DNA of 64,000 nucleotides, from positions 46,035 to 110,034 of the IMG/VR virus record IMGVR_UViG_3300021400_000262. One strand, given 5' to 3'. Position 1 is the stretch's first letter. Each line of letters opens with the position of its first letter. A model generated the notes under the pieces. That model saw only the letters and a list, made by a program, of their open reading frames with translations. It had not been told where the DNA came from and made no database searches. This DNA is from a virus. Lineage: Duplodnaviria; Caudoviricetes. Positions 15,781-23,570 of the stretch are shown here, piece after piece. Both the position numbers and the translations under genes were made by a program.

Positions 15781-15821
15781 GGACAATATTGAGAAAATAA
15801 TCTAAATTATTTTTGATATAT
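15781..15821 (+). promoter_or_regulatory. Recurrent bipartite intergenic motif GG(A/C)CAA-N28-GATATAT (candidate late promoter)
   Basis: The same architecture recurs at 36143, 39040, 47099 and 50143, always shortly upstream of the first gene of a unit. Confidence 0.55.
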
Positions 15822-15854
15822 TTATAGATAATGGAGAGAAAGGAGGAACAAGCC

Positions 15855-18800
15855 TTGGGAGATAAAAGCGAACAATTATTTCAAGGAATAGAAATAATTG
15901 CAAAAGGGCTTATATCTGATTTAAAATTTAATAAAACCTCAGTATGTACTATTAAAGATACAAAAGAAGCTTCGCAAGGTAAATATTATGTTACTGATGG
16001 AACAAGTTATTTTTATGCATATTCAGAAAATACTGATTATGTAAAAGAATAGCAAGTATATGTAATGATTCCTAATGGCGATTATAATAATTAGAAAATT
16101 ATTACTGGTAAATATTTAGCGAATGAAAACGAATCATATACTTATTCAGCTCCTTTTAATTCTTTTGTAGATATAACTGGAAATCTTTATAATAGTGCTA
16201 TTGATGAAGTCCCAAAGTTAGATTCTTCTTTAATTGCGAATGGGGAAATTAAAGAAATTCTTTTATGGGAAAATAAAGATTCATTAAAAGGATATACTAC
16301 TTTAGGTGTTAAAGCAGATTTTAAATCTTTATTAAAAGAGTTTAATACAGTTGAAGGTACTTATGGATTAAGAATCGCTATTCGTTTTATTGATTCTACC
16401 AATAGAGCTAATTCACAAGTAAGAGTTATTACTTTTACGAATGAAGATATGTATGGTAATCCGTATAATTTTGAAACTTATTATACTCAAGAAAAATTAT
16501 TTACAATAGCCGATAAAGATAAAATTATTGATAGAATTTAGGTATACTTCTTTTAGGATAAAAACTTTAGAGCTTCAAATGGAGTCAATATTCCTGTAGC
16601 TACATTACCGAATCTTTTTATTAAGAATGTTTTTGTTGCTTTAGGATATGATTTAAATGGCTTTGGAGAAGATTAGGTTTTATTATATAGTTTAAATTCT
16701 GATACTTATGATGCATCTTATAGCTCTTTTGAAAATAAGAAAACTATGAATATAAGATGGATTCATAAAATAGATGATAATAATTTTGAATGTTATGCTG
16801 AAGAAAATGAAGAATTTTCAAATTCTTTAATCATACACTGGTATAAATATAATCTTTCAACTGGCGTTATAGATCCTCTTGCGGGTAATTTTTGGTAGGA
16901 AATACCAGAAGCAAAGAATAAATTTAAATATTCTATTTTTCCGAATACTATAGAAAGTAATGAATAGTATAAAGTAATTATTGAATCAATTCCTGATAAT
17001 AATATTGATGATGCAGAGTTAAATAATCTTGAAAATTTAGTTTAGGAAAAATATAGTGTTTTAAATGATTATACTGCTAGATATGGGAATTCTAATAACG
17101 AGATTGAAATGCAGTTATTAGAAAATGCTCGATAGGAATATGATGCTGCTGTTGAAGATTATGATTTTTAGAAAGCTTAGTTGTTTGCGGAAACCCAGTA
17201 TTTTGAAAGTAATGTTTTAACTTTTACTAATGAATCTTTAGTTGCTAATTATGCAAGTATAGATTTAATTAATGGTCTTTCAATAGAATGTGATTTAAAT
17301 GGTCAGAAGGGAATTTATAATATATATAATTCTCATAATGAATTAACTAATTCTAGTGAAGGCAATAAAATGAGATTAATGACTGCGGTTTATAATTCTA
17401 TTATAACTGGTCAAGAATCTCTTGATACTGCGGAAAAGATTTCTTGGAGATTCCCTTTAACTAAGACAATGATTCAAACTCCAGTCGATGGCAAAGAATA
17501 TAATACTGCCAATGGAGATGAATACTTTGAGGCTGCGGATGGTAGTTATTGTATTATCACGCGTGATGGTACGAAAGCTACTGGGGACATAGGATCGTCT
17601 TTCCCGAACGCCGCGAGTCAATATTTTAGAATTAAACCTTATTATGTTGAAGGTGCTACTGATAATATAATTACTTGTTATGTAACCAAGAACAGAACTA
17701 CTTATACAGCTTCAACTTCTCTTACCTTTGGAAATCAAGGAAATAGTGGAACAGATTTTACTTTTTTCCTTTAGTGGGAAGAAGGAAGTAATTGTATTTA
17801 TGAGAATGATGAAGATCCAATTTAGATTTTTGCTCATTTATACGATGAAGAAAATAATGAAATTGCTCTACGAAATGTTACTTTTGAATGGGTTAATCCT
17901 GATACGAAGTTTAGAGATTTTATTATTAATGAAAGTCCAATTACTTTCTGCAATTCTACTGGAAGCGAATCTTATTATAGTATAAGTGTTGGAGGTAGTG
18001 ATAGTTGTTATATTCATTATGATAGCATAAGAGAATATAAAGATGGTTTTTGGAATATATTAAAAGCGACTGTTAAAACAGGAGAATCTGAACCCGTTAC
18101 TAGTGATGGTTAGGAGCTTGGAGCGGAAGTTGTTTTAACAGCTTATTTATCAATACCTTTAACTCAAAGAAGAACTACTTCTTCTGGAACAGTTAATATT
18201 TTTTCTTCGGTTGAAGGTTGTAATAAAATAATTTATAATTCTTTAGGTTCTAATCCAGATTATTTTTCTGGTTAGTATAAAATCTTTTAGGGCGCTAATG
18301 AATATGATATTGATACAAATGGATATTCTTGGCGGATTTTAATTAAAGATTTTATGGATACTGCAATAGATGTAGATGAGTAGAATCATTTAAAGAATTA
18401 TTATCCATAGATTAAAAATAATTTTATTGTTCCTCCATCTATGTATTTTGGATTTACTGGAATATGTAGTGCAATTTGTGCAAATGATTTGGGGGATATT
18501 ATTTGGGCTTAGCCAATAGTCATATAGCAAGATTAGTATAGTTCAGCTTTATTAAATTCTTGGAATGGTAAATATACTGTTGATGAAGAGGCTGGAACTA
18601 TATTAACAACAATGTTGGGAGCTGGGTCTAAAGATGAAAGAAATAGATTTTCTGGAGTTCTTCTTGGTGATATAGATGATTCTGATAAAGGAGTCTTCGG
18701 TTATCATGAAGGTGCTCAATCTTTTGGATTTAGAACCAATGGTAAAGCTTTTATTGGTAAAGCTAATAAAGGTCGAATTGAATTCGACGGAAATTCTGGA

Positions 18801-21158
18801 TCAATTAAAAGTATGTCTTATAGCAAAGGCAATACTGGTATGTTAATTGATTTAGATGATGGTGTTATTGATATTTTAGGTTGCGAATATGCAAGTGTTG
18901 CGACTGTTTATGATAGTAGCATTGTCTATTGGTATTTAAATGAAGATGAAAAATGGCAATAGATAAATGAAATTTATAATCTTTCTGTATAGACAGCAGA
19001 AGATTTTAATAAAGGTCCTATTTAGTTAGCTACAGAATAGTCTAAGTAGGATTTGGTTTCACATGATGAAACAAGTCCTTATTATAATAAATTTTTATAT
19101 CCAATAGTAGCAGAGTATTATGATTATAATGAAACTTATTGGTATAAAGATGCTGATAATAATTGGGCTTAGACAAATGTTCCTGGTAATATTGAATTAT
19201 TGAGTGAAGATGCTTTTTGGGCTGGTGTTATAGGTCTTGCGAGCAATGGATTAGGAATATCTGTTTTAACAGATGAAAGCAGTCCTTATTATAATAAATT
19301 TTATACATTCTCTGATACGCTTCCTACTGGAGCTGATTTAAACGAATGCTTTTATTTAGATAATAATGAAGCTTTTGTTAATCCTAATACTATTCTTGTC
19401 TTGGAGGTGCGGACGGCCGCAGACTTCGCATTAGGGCCAGTTGAATTAGCAAGACAACAAAGAAAAACAGATAGAATTTTAGCTGATAGTAATAGAGCTG
19501 GTTATAATAAATTCTTTTCTGGATAGACAGTAAACGATTCAGATAATAATACAACTTATACAAAAACAGATAGTCGAGTAACTATTTAGGCATTATCACC
19601 ATATATTAAAGTTAATGAGTCTGGAAAAGATGTTTTTTAGATTGCTAAGGACGTGTCTTTTATTTAGACTAATGATTATAGTTCTAGCGAATTAACAGGA
19701 GCTAGAATTACTTTAAAAGGCGCTGATGATACAGTTAATAGTTCGATCAAGCCTTCTTTTGATATAAAAGCATATAGTGCTACTGGTGGAGTAAAAATGA
19801 GTTCCATTTCTCCTTTTTTAGTAGCTCAAGCAAGAGATAATAGTCACGATATAAATGGAGTTAGAGATTTAGAAAATTATCCTTATAAAACATTATTAAG
19901 TGTTGGCGATAATAGTTATTATTTACAATCTTTTAATTATGAAACTCCAACTTCTAATGCTGAAGATGGTACTGAAAACACTACCAATGGCAAAGGAATG
20001 AGAATTGATCTTGCTAATGGAAAAATTTTAGGATATGATTTTTCCTTGAAGGCACAAGAAAATTCTGGAGATTATAATGGTTCTTATGTGGCTATTAATA
20101 GCAATGGTAATTCTTATTTAAGAGTACATTTAAAAACAGTTTCTAGTGCTCCAGAATATGAACTTGTTACTTTTCCTAGTGCAGTAACATCAACTGCTAT
20201 GGGAGAAGAAGATGGAACTGGATATGTAGCTAATACTTATTATTATTATGATGAAAATACTAATAGTTATTAGTTAGCTACTGAAGGTTGGAATCCTAAT
20301 ATAACATATTATTAGTTAACAACAATACCCACTCAATTAAGAGATGTTGATTTAATTAATATAGGAAAAAATAAATTTTTATTACAATCTTAGAACTGGG
20401 TTTCTGGTCATTCTGGTACTTAGATTAATTTATCAAGAGGTAAAATAACTTCTTATAACTTTAATTTAAGAGCAGTTGGAACTGGAGGAACAATTTTTAT
20501 TAATAGTACCAATCCTACTTATCCTTTTAGAATTGAAGGTAATACAGAACAAAGTATTCAAAATAATATTACTTCAACTGTTGTTACTAATGTTGGTAAA
20601 AGTTATTTTAGGATAAAATGGAACGGAGATTTTATAGCTGGAAATAATACTAATAATTTGGAATATTCCGGTGGACGTTTTACTTTAAAAGGTGGCGTTA
20701 TTTCTGGTGGTTCTATTAATATTGGAAATGGATTTTTTAAGGCTAATGATGAAGAAGTAAAATTGGGTGATTGGCATGTTGATAGTTCTAATGGAGCAGA
20801 TGCTTTTTATTATGGAGATTGGGATGATTCTACTATTGGAATGGCAAATCCTTCTTCTTCTAATCATCCATATTATTTATGGGCTGGATGGGGAGACGAT
20901 TATAAACTACCTAATGGTGCTCATGCAATGTTAGCTACCAATAGAGATGGAACAGAAATTGCTAATTTAACTTTATATGGACCTACAAGTTTACATGAAG
21001 GTGGAACTCATTATTCCGGATCAACTTTAGGTTCAGCTTTAGATAATTTATATGATAGCATTGATAACTATGATACCTGGTTAGCACGAGGAGAATGGCA
21101 TAGAGAAATTATAGACCATGAAGAAATTTGTCATGCCAGAGGCCCAGAGAATGATTAA
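15855..21158 (+). CDS. Large tail-tip/central-fibre-like protein. Unspliced form is 1767 aa; exon 1 (15855-21061) of the predicted spliced forms.
   Basis: AAGGAGG RBS with TTG at 15855. Track fragments at 15831, 17181, 18612, 19200, 19797 and 20658 are in one frame, joined by TAGs. Gly-rich beta-repeat C-terminal half (GRIEFDGNSGSIKS...GMLIDLDDG; GMRIDLANG). First gene after the TMP. Confidence 0.75.
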
Positions 21159-21587
21159 AATCAGGATTAAATGGTGCTAGTAAAATTCCTTAAACTGCGG
21201 GGACACCCTTAGAGCTTTTACAACCAAACAAGTACAGGGATGTGCTTGCGGCGATGGAGTAACGGCCTCGGTATGGTAAAATCGTAAAAGATTGGGCAAT
21301 CAAACGCATCGAAATCTCTAGAACAGAGAGACGTTCAACGACTATAATAGGAACTCGAAAGAGATGGTATAGTCTAATCGCTTACGAAATGTAAGAGTGA
21401 AATGCAGAAATTAGTAGGCTGCTTTTAATGAAGGAGCTGAAGCTGGTTTTGTAGCTGCTTAGAGAGAGACACCCTGTGATCCAGATTGTTATTGCAACTA
21501 TGAATTTTGTGCAGATGATTGCGATACATGTAATAATGGAAATTGTGGGTGCAATAGTGGACAATGTGAACCAGATGATTAATGCTG
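21062..21587 (+). mobile_element. Group I self-splicing intron with no homing endonuclease. Predicted 5'SS after 21061; candidate 3'SS at G21587 (strong P10) or G21407.
   Basis: Core elements: P AACTGCGGGGA (~21193), Q-like GGGCAATCAAACGCA (~21294), R GTTCAACGACTATA (21333-21346), S ATGGTATAGTCT (21364-21375). Helices: P3 TTCCT/AGGAA, P7 GACTA/TAGTC, P8 CTC-GAAA-GAG, P9 CTTAC-GAAAT-GTAAG, and a P5abc-like extension. P1 pairs exon UAGCAU (21056-61) with IGS GUGCUA (21174-79) and ends in U.G. Confidence is high for the ribozyme core and lower for the exact ends. Confidence 0.85.
21408..21582 (+). CDS. Cys-rich cassette A (predicted alternative 3' exon, 9 Cys)
   Basis: Reads NQQAAFNEGAEAGFVAAQRETPCDPDCYCNYEFCADDCDTCNNGNCGCNSGQCEPDD* with TAG=Gln. 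In phase with exon 1 if spliced at G21407. Confidence 0.6.
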
Positions 21588-21852
21588 TAATTCTGATGAA
21601 AGTTATACAAGTGGTTCAAATTCTTTAAAAGGACGACTTTATTCTGATGGATATTCAGATGGATATGAAGCTTGGGATCCACCATTATATTGTCATCATT
21701 GTAATAACAATAAAATATGTGATGAATTTTGTGGGTGTGATATTGTAAATTGCGATTGTAATGATAATAGTCCTTGTTCTTGTAATAGATCTTATTGTGG
21801 AGATGATTGCGATGATACTCCTTGTTTTAGTTATGGACCTGGTGGAGTGTAA
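21588..21852 (+). CDS. Cys-rich cassette B (predicted 3' exon, 12 Cys)
   Basis: Reads NSDESYTSGSNSLKGRLYSDGYSDGYEAWDPPLYCHHCNNNKICDEFCGCDIVNCDCNDNSPCSCNRSYCGDDCDDTPCFSYGPGGV*. It has no start codon of its own, is in phase with exon 1 if spliced at G21587, has a 10-bp P10, and its stop lies 5 nt before the radical SAM ATG. Confidence 0.7.
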
Positions 21853-21857
21853 AAACA

Positions 21858-23153
21858 ATGATTTATATTATTAATAAAGGTAATAAAAAAATATTTAATA
21901 TTTTAAAATTACAAAAATATGATTCTTATAAAAGATATATTTTTTCTCCTTATATAATTAAAATATGGAAAGAAAACAATTTACTTTTGAGAAATCTCTT
22001 AACACAAGAAAGTATTATGTTAAAAAATAGTAATGAAGAAGATGAAAAATTCTTAATTACTCATTGGTTTAAAATAGAACAAGAATCAAATCCATATGAT
22101 CTTTTTTAGAAAATTAAAAAAGAAGGAAATGAATCACATAAAAATATAAATAATTACAATTTATTAACTGATTTTGATAAAGCTATAATTTATACTACTT
22201 TAGATTGTAATGCTAATTGTTATTATTGTTATGAGAAACATTAGTGCTTTTAGCGTAAAAATATGACTAAAGAAGTTGCTGATAAATTAATAAATTTAAT
22301 TATATAGAATAAACCTAAAAAATTTTTTTTCAGTTGGTTTGGTGGAGAGCCTTTATTTAATTATTAGATTATAGATTATATTATTGATAAGATAAAAGAA
22401 AATAATATTGACTATGTTTCATCTATGATTTCTAATGCTATTTTATTTACTCCTGAAATGATAGAAAGGGCAGTAAAAAAATGGAAATTAAGAAATATTT
22501 AGATTACAGTGGATGGGATATATGAAAATTATGAAAAAATAAAAGATGTCCCGAAAGGAAGCTTTGAAAGACTTGCAAATAATATAGATTTATTAATTTA
22601 GAATAAAGTAAAAGTCAGTATAAGATTAAATATTACTCCAGATAATTTACAAGAATTAAAAAAAGCTATTTTATTTTTTAAAAAATATAAAGGTAATCAA
22701 TATTTTAGTATTTATACTCATGAAATATTTGATACTCCACTTGATAAATAGAAAAAAATATTTTATAATAAAAGAGTATTAAATGAATATATACATTACT
22801 ATTGTGGACATGACCCAAAGATTATATAGTGGCAAGAAAAATGTTGTATGGCTGATTAGGGTAAATGTATCGGTGTTTTACCAGATGGTGAATTAAATAT
22901 TTGTGAACATTGTATAGACCATGATCACTTTTCAAATTTAGATTAGGATTTTTATGATATAAATGTTATAAATAAATTTACAGAAATATCTGATAGAAAA
23001 GAATGTCAATTATGTCCACTCAGACCGAGTTGTATTTTTTTACATGAATGTGGTGGTAGTAGTGGAAATCATTGTTCTTAGTATAGAGTAGAAGATAGAT
23101 TATTAGAACATAAATTAGATTTAATATCTTCTATTGAAAATAAATTAAATTAG
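21858..23153 (+). CDS. Radical SAM/SPASM-domain protein (~431 aa to the TAG at 23151; reads on in frame to 23570 if that TAG is Gln)
   Basis: CxxxCxxC motif TTLDCNANCYYCYE (Cys codons at 22206, 22218, 22227), WFGGEPL, ISN and QITVDG motifs. C-terminal SPASM-like Cys set CMAD..C...PDGELNICEHC...ECQLCPLRPSC....C.......C. GGAG RBS. Confidence 0.9.
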
Positions 23154-23174
23154 AGAAAAAGGAGATTACATCTT

Positions 23175-23570
23175 ATGATTACAAGAAATTTATATACCAA
23201 TTTAGATATTTATAACAAAGCAATGGCTCTTGTTGAGGCTTTTAATACAAAGGAAGGTAAAGAATTAAATTATCCTGTAAAGATTAATTATTATCTTCAG
23301 AAGAATATCAAGGCTTTTGTTGATGCTGCTACAGAGATCGAGCAAAAGAGAATTGAGATTGTTCAGAAGTATGGTAATAAGAAAGAAGATTCTGAAGAAT
23401 ATATCATTCCAGAAGATAAAATGGATGAAGCAGGAAAAGAATTACAAGATTTCTTTGAACTAGAGCAAGAGATTCCAGTTAGTATGTTAAAGCTAGATTG
23501 GTTTGATAATATTGATATGACTGCAGAGCAAGTTTCTGCGATTTCTTTCATGATTGAGGAAGAGGAGTAA
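23175..23570 (+). CDS. Small acidic phage protein (131 aa)
   Basis: Own AAGGAG RBS (23159-23164), no TAG, TAA stop. In frame with the upstream radical SAM ORF. Confidence 0.8.
   Translation: MITRNLYTNLDIYNKAMALVEAFNTKEGKELNYPVKINYYLQKNIKAFVDAATEIEQKRIEIVQKYGNKKEDSEEYIIPEDKMDEAGKELQDFFELEQEIPVSMLKLDWFDNIDMTAEQVSAISFMIEEEE

What the first reader, a model, noticed from the sequence alone, without database searches (positions are those of the whole stretch)
21056..21852. Group I intron with two in-phase 3' splice sites: candidate ribozyme-driven alternative splicing giving three C-termini on a phage tail-tip protein
Seen in the sequence: a complete group I core (21184-21400) at the 3' end of the 15855 tail gene. 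Exon UAGCAU (21056-61) pairs with IGS GUGCUA (21174-79) with the canonical terminal U.G, putting the 5'SS after 21061, which splits an Ile codon (AT|). Downstream are two near-identical junctions exactly 180 nt apart: AATGCAG|AAATT (G21407) and AATGCTG|TAATT (G21587). Both rebuild Ile-Asn in frame (ATA AAT / ATT AAT), and each opens a different Cys-rich cassette with its own TAA. Exon B's first 10 nt (UAAUUCUGAU) pair with 21160-69 (AUCAGGAUUA), a strong P10. Exon A gives only a 4-5 bp P10 but lies right after P9. Cassette B has no start codon, so it needs splicing (or TAA readthrough) to be expressed. Predicted products are 1767 aa (unspliced), 1793 aa (A) and 1823 aa (B). Established: group I introns choose splice sites through P1, P10 and the terminal G. 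Inference: an intron with no endonuclease has been domesticated as a switch that diversifies a virion tip at the RNA level, analogous to shufflons or DGRs. I know of no described phage system like this.
Basis: partly seen in the sequence, partly recalled or inferred. Interest (0 to 1): 0.97.

Follow-up and report, generated by a model that had tools for sequence, protein, structure and literature searches.

The report
Group I intron with alternative 3′ exons
A self-splicing RNA at the end of a large tail-module gene of a rumen phage appears built to join one protein body to either of two alternative Cys-rich tails, or to a third tail if left unspliced, which would be natural alternative 3′-exon choice by a group I intron.

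Summary
A real group I intron with no endonuclease gene sits near the 3′ end of a 1767-aa gene that follows the tape-measure gene in a TAG=Gln recoded, 110-kb rumen phage. Rfam scores it 32.6 bits, below the family threshold, but covariation and nrdD-intron relatives support the fold. I found seven further lineages with the same gene and intron. In all, the intron core is about 97% conserved while the exons have diverged to 40–50% amino-acid identity. P1 shows a compensatory change: UAGCAU/GUGCUA versus GAGCAU/GUGCUC. Cassette B has no start codon in five of seven lineages and evolves as coding sequence. It is always in phase with the 5′ exon through a conserved G, yet out of frame with cassette A in four of eight lineages, which excludes stop-codon readthrough. 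In three lineages B carries its own copy of the intron's P8′–P7′–P9 module. In most others its first bases pair beside the guide sequence (P10; combined P 1.5e-5). No spliced RNA was seen; the available RNA contigs were too short. [quoted passage not shown]

The parts
15855..21061 (+). 5' exon of the host gene: a large protein of the tail module, directly after the tape-measure gene. It is open only with TAG=Gln. The start is uncertain (TTG 15813, ATG 15831 or TTG 15855).
   Evidence: 35 in-frame TAG codons. (the upstream 2873-aa protein matches tape-measure PHROGs). No Pfam, PHROG or PDB match for the protein itself.
21056..21061 (+). 5' strand of P1 (UAGCAU). The 5' splice site follows U21061 and splits an Ile codon (AU|N).
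   Evidence: Invariant in five lineages and changed to GAGCAU together with IGS GUGCUC in L011, L012 and L014. Local conservation peak of 0.80 against a 0.4-0.5 background.
21062..21158 (+). L1 loop of the intron, which is also 'cassette 0': 31 codons in frame with the 5' exon, ending at TAA 21156-58. This is the C-terminus of the unspliced product.
   Evidence: The frame is open from the 5'SS to 6-21 nt before the IGS in 7 of 8 lineages. A (N/D)(Y/W)xxWL motif is kept through synonymous Leu codons. Intron relatives in other genes have an L1 of only 11-34 nt.
21160..21169 (+). Guide segment AUCAGGAUUA, which pairs with the start of exon B (P10-B). G21173, next to the IGS, can pair with the first exon base (C or U).
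   Evidence: 10 bp, P about 0.004. The same position pairs with different sequences in L004 (12 bp), L012 (8 bp) and L006 (7 bp, with a compensatory A-U to G-C change).
21174..21179 (+). Internal guide sequence GUGCUA (3' strand of P1).
   Evidence: It is positionally homologous to the IGS GCUCAC of the nrdD introns L001 and L002, which lies directly before GUAAAA-P3. It covaries with the exon.
21180..21395 (+). Catalytic core. P3 21186-89 with 21350-53; P4 21196-201 with 21300-08; P5/P5a; P6 21310-33; P7 21340-46 with 21368-74; P8 21354-63; P9 hairpin 21381-95.
   Evidence: Rfam alignment. RNAalifold with nrdD introns gives 43 pairs, 10 with compensatory changes. P3 covaries as UUCC/GGAA, CCAU/AUGG and CAGG/CCUG. 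P7 shows a compensatory change in L012. About 97% identical across lineages.
21396..21407 (+). 3' tail of the intron with the proximal 3' splice site. G21404 (AAUG|) is conserved in all lineages.
   Evidence: The tail GGUAGAAAUG| of L004 aligns with GGUAGAUUCG| of the nrdD intron L002, whose splice site is fixed by the conserved NrdD C-terminus.
21405..21582 (+). Exon/cassette A, (R)NQQAAFNEG...CEPDD, with TAA at 21580-82. It is Cys-rich, has no start codon and contains 3 TAG=Gln codons.
   Evidence: Three differences from strain L003, all synonymous. Homologous A cassettes are present in all lineages.
21576..21587 (+). Second copy of the intron tail (UUAAUGCUG), overlapping A's stop codon, with the distal 3' splice site.
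   Evidence: 90% identity to L006 here against 40-60% either side. L011 has an identical 12-nt tail before both A and B. L004, L005 and L014 have a whole second P8'-P7'-P9 module at this place.
21585..21855 (+). Exon/cassette B, (C)NSDESY...GPGGV, with TAA at 21853-55. It is Cys-rich, has no start codon, and is a paralogue of A.
   Evidence: Five differences from L003, all synonymous. A and B profiles match at hhalign probability 93%, E 3.6e-7. In phase with the 5' exon in 8 of 8 lineages.
21858..23570 (+). Radical SAM gene directly behind the cassettes (context only, not part of the intron).
   Evidence: PF04055 at 66 bits. The best NCBIfam matches are peptide maturases, but far below their cut-offs, and no SPASM domain was detected. 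Found directly downstream in every lineage whose sequence reaches that far.

Best explanation
A group I intron without a homing endonuclease, related to the phage nrdD/sunY-type introns, interrupts the last part of a large tail-module gene. It offers the ribozyme two 3' exons.

P1 forms between UAGCAU|21061 and the guide GUGCUA 21174-79. It closes a long L1 loop that is itself an in-frame coding cassette ('0'). After guanosine attack at 21061, the freed 5' exon can be ligated at either of two sites:
- the proximal 3' splice site just after P9 (G21404, less likely G21407), giving cassette A;
- a distal site 180 nt further on (G21584 or G21587), giving cassette B.

The distal site carries a copy of the intron's 3' tail and is docked by a 10-bp P10 with 21160-69. 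In three related phages it is instead served by a duplicated P8'-P7'-P9 module, so that module 1 plus cassette A becomes a large L8 loop of an alternative ribozyme fold.

Transcripts translated before splicing end in cassette 0, whose stop lies 15 nt before the guide sequence. The result is three proteins with a common body of about 1735 aa and the endings ...YDSI-DNYDTW..., ...YDSI-(R)NQQAAF... and ...YDSI-(C)NSDESY...

Shown: the fold, the splice-site elements and their covariation, the coding constraint on the cassettes, and the phase relations. Inferred: that both ligations occur in vivo, their ratio, and any effect on adsorption or host range.
For: Group I identity:
- Rfam full-length alignment.
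- blastn relatives at the RVCG|Y site of phage nrdD genes.
- Consensus fold with 10 compensatory pairs.

5' splice site:
- The exon hexamer is invariant or covaries with the IGS: five lineages UAGCAU/GUGCUA, three GAGCAU/GUGCUC, none mismatched.

Site B:
1. B lacks a start codon in WIN, L006, L004, L005 and L014, and contains TAG=Gln codons in every lineage except this window.
2. WIN against L003 shows 9 changes in cassettes 0, A and B, all synonymous.
3. B is in phase with the 5' exon via the conserved G in 8 of 8 lineages, but in A's frame in only 4 of 8, with several stops between them in L004, L005 and L011.
4. L004, L005 and L014 carry a second P8'-P7'-P9-G module before B. It keeps the P9 hairpin through a C-G to U-A double change.
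5. L011 has an identical 12-nt tail before both A and B.
6. P10-B run lengths are 10, 7, 12 and 8 bp in WIN, L006, L004 and L012, made with different sequences at the same place. Fisher P is 1.5e-5 over 7 lineages. P10-A gives P 0.99.
7. WIN/L006 identity peaks at the 5'SS, the start of A and the A/B junction.

Other points:
- A and B are paralogues, as expected from duplication of module plus cassette.
- There is no promoter or terminator signal between A and B.
- Relatives of this intron normally have a 3' splice site far from the core, behind an endonuclease gene, so a distal site is within the family's repertoire.
Against: - No spliced junction was observed. The only RNA material was 151-250-nt contigs covering unspliced or excised-intron sequence.
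- The window itself lacks the second P7'-P9 module, so use of site B here depends on one core reaching 180 nt downstream.
- P10-B is absent in L011 and weak in L005 and L014.
- The Rfam score is below the family threshold.
- In L012 and L013 an ATG in B's frame lies upstream inside cassette A, and L011's B has an internal ATG, so independent translation of B cannot be excluded in those lineages.
- The lineages are related, so the covariation events are fewer than the sequences counted.
Confidence: 0.68

Rival explanations
1. It is an ordinary group I intron with a single 3' splice site (A). Cassette B is a decaying or silent duplicate, or is expressed by some unrelated route. The second modules and tails are leftovers of a tandem duplication.
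For: Site A lies right after a complete core in every lineage. No RNA evidence for B was found. The window has no second module. L011, L012 and L013 have an ATG in B's frame, internal to B or upstream of it.
Against: B stays open for 71-89 codons in a 31% G+C genome in 8 lineages. Its only differences from a near-identical strain are synonymous. It keeps its phase with the 5' exon while its frame relative to A varies. The module-2 P9 keeps pairing through a double change. P10-B covaries.
Confidence: 0.17
2. Cassette B is made by readthrough of the TAA that ends cassette A, giving a body-A-B fusion after a single splicing event.
For: In the window and in L006, A and B are in the same frame and separated by one TAA.
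Against: B is in another frame in L011, L012, L013 and L014. Two or more stops, including TGA, separate A and B in L004, L005 and L011. ARAGORN finds no suppressor tRNA in the 110-kb genome.
Confidence: 0.04
3. The choice is made at the DNA level. Recombination between the repeated tails or modules deletes module 1 plus cassette A, giving genome subpopulations that carry only B behind the core.
For: Direct repeats exist: about 45 nt in L004, L005 and L014, 12 nt in L011, and 7 of 9 nt here. L006 and L007 are mosaic within the intron, so recombination does occur there.
Against: All eight DNA lineages carry both cassettes where the contig reaches that far. No deleted form appeared in the laid DNA run or in the contig collections. 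The model does not explain P10-B.
Confidence: 0.05
4. The intron-like region is inactive or a chance resemblance, and the gene simply ends at TAA 21156.
For: The Rfam score is below the gathering threshold.
Against: The core is about 97% conserved across lineages with strongly diverged exons. Compensatory changes occur in P1, P3, P5, P6, P7 and P9. The core is homologous to nrdD introns that restore the NrdD C-terminus.
Confidence: 0.02

Closest known systems
[quoted passage not shown]
   Same: One 5' ribozyme part is followed by repeated 3' catalytic modules, each with its own downstream coding segment. There is no intron-encoded protein. The unspliced transcript also encodes an isoform. The 5' splice site lies upstream of the stop codon of the upstream ORF. 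The products are surface-exposed proteins with alternative C-termini.
   Different: That is a group II ribozyme (D5/D6 repeats, lariat chemistry) in a bacterial chromosome, and its splicing has been shown by experiment. This one is a group I ribozyme (P8'-P7'-P9 repeats, or only a tail plus P10) in a phage structural gene, and it is supported only by comparative sequence evidence.
Phage T4 nrdD (sunY)-type group I introns, and their relatives in Enterococcus phage VRE9_1 and Enterocloster phage CB457P1
   Same: The core sequence is homologous (72% over about 155 nt). There is no P2. The IGS lies directly before P3. The 3' tail has the same form (GGUAGAxxxG|). The 3' splice site can lie far from the core.
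   Different: Those introns sit in nrdD, have an L1 of 11-34 nt, often carry a homing endonuclease, and have one 3' exon. Work on 3' splice-site choice by P9.0 and P10 in sunY (Michel et al. 1990) is cited from my own knowledge and was not read here.
Reported alternative splicing by group I introns: exon skipping in Twort orf142, the SIOphi DNA polymerase gene and Coxiella 23S rRNA, plus cryptic splice sites
   Same: Group I ribozymes yielding more than one ligated product, in some cases in phage genes (PMC11878797, PMC10136302).
   Different: Those cases involve two or more separate introns skipping a short exon, or cryptic sites of no known coding use. None has alternative, conserved, in-frame 3' coding cassettes served by one ribozyme.
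Fungal mitochondrial group I introns whose ORF is fused in frame to the upstream exon (own knowledge)
   Same: The upstream reading frame continues into the intron, so the unspliced RNA encodes an extended protein.
   Different: There the extension is a maturase or endonuclease. Here it is a short alternative C-terminus that lies inside the P1 loop.

Membership tests
Group I intron (Rfam RF00028) | Match to the family covariance model at or above its gathering score | tested here: not met
   32.6 bits against a gathering score of 50. The alignment covers the whole model and E is 3.4e-6 in a 1.3-kb search. No hit when the whole window or 19 kb of relatives is searched.
Group I intron (Rfam RF00028) | Conserved core helices P3-P9 including the P3/P7 pseudoknot, supported by covariation | tested here: met
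   RNAalifold recovers P4, P5, P5a, P6 and P7 with 10 compensatory pairs. P3 covaries by direct reading. P7 shows a compensatory change in L012, and P9 differs between lineages but stays a GAAA-type hairpin.
Group I intron (Rfam RF00028) | P1 formed by the 5' exon and an internal guide sequence, with U.G at the splice site | tested here: met
   UAGCAU/GUGCUA with terminal U.G. Compensatory GAGCAU/GUGCUC in three lineages.
Group I intron (Rfam RF00028) | Terminal guanosine (omega G) at the 3' splice site | tested here: met
   A G is conserved before cassette A in 8 of 8 lineages and before cassette B in 8 of 8. It is positionally homologous to the omega G of the nrdD intron L002.
Group I intron (Rfam RF00028) | Self-splicing activity | not testable with these tools
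   The laid RNA contigs held no joint.
Alternatively splicing self-splicing intron of the C.te.I1 type (repeated 3' ribozyme modules with alternative 3' exons) | Two or more copies of the 3' catalytic module, each followed by a coding segment in phase with the 5' exon | tested here: inconclusive
   Met in relatives L004, L005 and L014, which have two P8'-P7'-P9 modules. In the window itself only a 9-nt tail copy precedes B, and no second P7' is found even with up to 3 mismatches.
Alternatively splicing self-splicing intron of the C.te.I1 type (repeated 3' ribozyme modules with alternative 3' exons) | Alternatively ligated mRNAs detected | not testable with these tools
   One read-laying run on three bovine metatranscriptomes and one DNA run gave only short contigs and no joints.
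Mobile group I intron with homing endonuclease | Endonuclease ORF within the intron | tested here: not met
   No ORF other than cassettes 0, A and B lies between 21062 and 21855. Relatives in other genes do carry one.
Programmed stop-codon readthrough extension | The downstream segment is in the same frame as the upstream one, with a single stop between them, in all relatives | tested here: not met
   Same frame in 4 of 8 lineages only. Several stops intervene in L004, L005 and L011.

The most novel reading that the evidence does not exclude
A domesticated, endonuclease-free group I ribozyme is a natural alternative-splicing device. Kinetic competition between three processes sets the ratio of three C-terminal forms of a virion protein:
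- translation into the P1 loop (isoform 0);
- ligation at a proximal 3' site that has almost no P10 (isoform A);
- ligation at a distal 3' site strengthened either by a long P10 or by its own duplicated P7'-P9 module (isoform B).

The nearly invariant intron core also serves as a recombination linker through which phages exchange Cys-rich terminal cassettes. Those cassettes may be cross-linked by the adjacent radical SAM enzyme. This would be the first natural case of alternative 3'-exon selection by a group I intron and of RNA-level diversification of a phage tail protein.
Probability: 0.5. Interest if true: 0.95.

Novelty: new variant of a known kind. Interest (0 to 1): 0.9.

Why it matters
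Group I introns in bacteria and phages are treated as selfish or neutral passengers with one splicing outcome. Alternative coding outcomes from a self-splicing intron have been shown only once, for a group II intron in C. tetani.

A group I ribozyme that chooses between conserved 3′ exons would have three consequences:
- It would show that both ribozyme classes independently evolved alternative splicing by duplicating their 3′ catalytic module.
- It would give a compact natural system for studying 3′ splice-site choice (P10 strength, alternative P7 pairing) and translation–splicing competition.
- It would reveal a way for phages to place several C-terminal modules on one tail protein without invertases, DGRs or extra genes.

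The two architectures found here, duplicated module versus long P10, are natural variants of the same solution and make the question directly testable in vitro.

Tried and rejected
- **Rfam, whole window.** At the gathering threshold and at E ≤ 0.1 nothing was found; the speed filters drop the weak match. The same happened for 19 kb of relatives.
- **IMG/VR.** A protein scan with the last 319 aa of the 5′ exon and two DNA patterns found nothing, so the lineage is not in that collection.
- **Protein word search.** The last 212 aa of the 5′ exon gave no hits.
- **Reads.** Three bovine metatranscriptomes and a matched DNA run gave no joints. Only 151–250-nt contigs were available, covering exon–intron or L1–core, so this says nothing for or against splicing. 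The contig in X6 that seemed to show the A/B junction in a new context turned out to be an L006-type strain.
- **Intron-less fused homologues.** A profile of B cassettes against 1.84 billion proteins, and the L012 C-terminus against longer proteins, returned only further intron-containing lineages.
- **Host protein.** Pfam, PHROG and PDB searches gave no match.
It is not above chance in any lineage.
- **Alternative 5′ splice sites.** UGGCAU|21101 and UAGCAC|21087 are not conserved in relatives and are out of frame.
- **Separate transcription unit for B.** Promoter-like sites are at the shuffle level and there are no terminators.
- **Suppressor tRNA that could read TAA.** ARAGORN found none.
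Full report
**Context**

The window is the right-hand 64 kb of a single 110-kb contig with 33% G+C. The large late genes are open only if TAG is read as a sense codon. The gene in question has 35 in-frame TAG codons and no other stop from 15855 to TAA 21156. It follows a 2873-aa tape-measure protein (PF10145 and several tape-measure PHROGs). The protein itself matches nothing in Pfam, PHROGs or the PDB. So 'tail-module protein' is justified and 'tail tip' is not shown. Runs that hold the stretch are gut samples recorded as animal; those with a named host are bovine or ovine.

**Is there a group I intron?**

Yes, on three lines of evidence.
- In a 1.3-kb search, RF00028 aligns over its whole length to 21125–21397 at 32.6 bits (E 3.4e-6), with recognisable P3, P4, P6, P7, P8 and P9. 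This is below the curated threshold of 50, and the match is filtered out in larger searches.
- The core is 72% identical to sequences at the 3′ end of nrdD in Enterocloster phage CB457P1 and Enterococcus phages VRE9_1/2. In those, the interruption follows RVCG-, and the downstream piece restores the conserved NrdD C-terminus. In VRE9_1 a homing endonuclease lies between the core and the 3′ exon.
- A consensus fold of this intron with those relatives recovers P4, P5/P5a, P6 and P7 with 10 compensatory pairs. P3 covaries by direct reading: UUCC/GGAA, CCAU/AUGG, CAGG/CCUG.

**Relatives in the same gene**

A 25-nt IGS–P4 pattern found five metagenome loci and a 22-nt P3–P4 pattern one MAG contig. 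A profile of the B cassettes and a search with a homologous C-terminus found three more contigs. Besides a 99.4% identical strain (L003), this gives seven further lineages:
- complete: L004, L005, L006, L011, L012, L014;
- partial: L007 and L013 (L013 is related to L011).

From the guide sequence to P7′ the intron is about 97% identical among them. The flanking coding sequence is only 40–50% identical at the protein level.

**5′ splice site**

By position, the guide sequence corresponds to that of the nrdD introns, which lies directly before GUAAAA–P3 with no P2. This makes GUGCUA 21174–79 the IGS.

Its exon partner UAGCAU|21061 is invariant in five lineages. In L011, L012 and L014 the exon reads GAGCAU and the guide GUGCUC, a compensatory double change with no mismatched combination. 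Other six-pair candidates in the window (21101, 21087) are not conserved and are out of frame.

P1 therefore closes an L1 loop of 49–114 nt, against 11–34 nt in the intron's relatives in other genes. This loop continues the exon's reading frame to a stop 6–21 nt before the guide in seven of eight lineages. It keeps a (N/D)(Y/W)xxWL motif, with synonymous Leu codons. An in-frame stop just before the core is the arrangement usually read as protecting intron folding from ribosomes (PMC3984707). Here the stretch before that stop looks like a conserved alternative C-terminus.

**3′ splice sites**

Across lineages, however, the only G conserved in front of every A cassette, and of every B cassette, is the G of A-(A/G)-(U/A)-G|. 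The G three bases later is missing before A in L005, L011 and L013, and before B in L011 and L013. The tail GGUAGAAAUG| of L004 also aligns base for base with GGUAGAUUCG| of the nrdD intron L002, whose junction is fixed by protein conservation.

I therefore place the sites at G21404 and G21584. All four are in phase and give Ile at the junction. The only difference is one extra residue, Arg or Cys. With a start at 15855 the products are 1767 aa, 1794 (or 1793) aa and 1824 (or 1823) aa.

**Is cassette B really a 3′ exon?**

Seven lines of evidence say so.
1. B has no ATG, GTG or TTG in the window, and no ATG in L006, L004, L005 or L014.
2. The window and L003 differ at 1, 3 and 5 positions in cassettes 0, A and B. 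All nine are third-position and synonymous.
3. B is in phase with the 5′ exon through the conserved G in all eight lineages. It shares A's frame in only four (WIN, L006, L004, L005) and is shifted by one base in L011, L012, L013 and L014. Several stops lie between A and B in L004, L005 and L011. Readthrough is thereby excluded as the general mechanism.
4. In L004, L005 and L014, B is preceded by a second copy of the 3′ strand of P8, J8/7, the 3′ strand of P7, J7/9, the P9 hairpin and the tail. Within P7′–P9, the copies in L004 and L005 differ from module 1 by three bases. Two of these are a C-G to U-A exchange that preserves the P9 stem, and the same changes are shared by lineages with very different exons. 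With this module the 5′ two-thirds of the ribozyme can complete its core in two mutually exclusive ways. In the second, module 1 and cassette A become a large L8 loop.
5. In L011 the same 12-nt tail precedes both A and B. In the window and L006 a 9-nt tail copy overlaps A's stop codon.
6. The first bases of exon B pair with the segment just 5′ of the guide. The runs are 10 bp here, 12 bp in L004, 8 bp and contiguous with P1 in L012, and 7 bp in L006, with an A-U to G-C exchange relative to the window. Against all other 16-mers of each locus the combined P is 1.5e-5. For exon A the same test gives 0.99. Lineages without a second module mostly have the strong P10, and two of the three with the module have a weak one.
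7. WIN/L006 identity peaks at the 5′SS (0.80), the start of A (0.83) and the A/B junction (0.87), on a background of 0.4–0.6.

A and B are paralogues (hhalign probability 93%, E 3.6e-7), as expected if a module plus cassette was duplicated in tandem.

**What is missing**

No spliced RNA was seen. It returned only 151–250-nt contigs of exon–intron or L1–core sequence. These fit pre-mRNA, excised intron or DNA carry-over equally well. No intron-less homologue was found that could show the ancestral C-terminus.

**Mechanism proposed** (inference beyond the elements above)

- Ribosomes that pass 21061 before P1 forms make isoform 0. They stop 15 nt before the guide sequence.
- Once P1 forms and guanosine cleaves at 21061, the proximal site wins by position. 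The distal site competes through its long P10, or in relatives through its own P7′–P9 module.
- The ratio is probably set kinetically during transcription.

**Comparison with known systems**

The closest described system is C.te.I1 of Clostridium tetani, a group II intron with four D5/D6 repeats and alternative 3′ exons. Its 5′ splice site is shifted upstream of the stop codon, and it gives five surface-layer isoforms including the unspliced one (PMC3919590).

For group I introns the literature I could search reports only exon skipping between tandem introns (Twort orf142, SIOphi polymerase, Coxiella 23S) and cryptic sites (PMC11878797, PMC10136302). Searches for a phage or group I equivalent found none.

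**Verdict**

I classify it as a new variant of a known kind, and its interest is high.

Noticed in passing
window 21858-23570; also downstream of cassette B in L004, L005, L006, L011, L012: A 570-aa radical SAM protein follows the Cys-rich cassettes in every lineage whose sequence reaches that far. Its best NCBIfam matches are peptide maturases (Clo7bot, CefB 'Cys-every-fifth', PapB ranthipeptide), but at about 80 bits against cut-offs of 340-600. The matches cover only the radical SAM core, and no SPASM domain was detected. The cassettes could be its substrates.
   Followed up: partly
whole 110-kb genome (G000): The late genes need TAG=Gln, yet ARAGORN finds only three tRNAs: Ala-TGC, an 84-nt Trp-CCA and Lys-TTT. 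None is a suppressor, so the source of TAG decoding is not evident from the contig.
   Followed up: no
L006 versus L007 and L004 (5' exon, L1, P8-P9, cassette A): L006 and L007 share the 5' exon and cassette 0 (92% and 85% aa identity). However, L007's P8, P9 and cassette A resemble those of L004 (62% identity) rather than L006 (36%). This implies recombination inside the nearly invariant intron core, which may act as a linker for exchanging 3' cassettes.
   Followed up: partly
L008, L009, L010 (IMG/VR contigs); L001, L002 (phage nrdD): The same intron family sits in other phage genes. There it has a short L1 (11-34 nt), a single 3' module and, in several cases, an endonuclease ORF after the core. 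The long coding L1 and the doubled 3' end are specific to the tail-gene lineage.
   Followed up: partly
RNA contigs of runs X16 and X17, laid at window 21170-21353: Two further lineages appear in bovine metatranscriptome libraries. They have different cassette-0 ends (…FCSWE* and …PDD*) joined to the same guide and core. X17 lacks the AUCAGGAUUA guide segment of the window.
   Followed up: no
L012 3001-3369 (P0003); L013 220-501 (P0002): Gene callers merged B with an upstream ATG that lies in the +1 frame inside cassette A, which gives a hydrophobic N-terminus. This is probably an overlap artefact of Cys/Asn/Asp codons. It does leave open independent translation of B in those two lineages.
   Followed up: no
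window 15813-15855: The start of the host gene is ambiguous: TTG 15813, ATG 15831 and TTG 15855 are all in frame. The product lengths quoted depend on this choice.
   Followed up: no
window 21080-21087: UUAGCAC inside L1 can pair with the guide sequence (7 pairs, C instead of U at the cleavage position). It could compete with the authentic P1. It is not conserved in relatives.
   Followed up: partly
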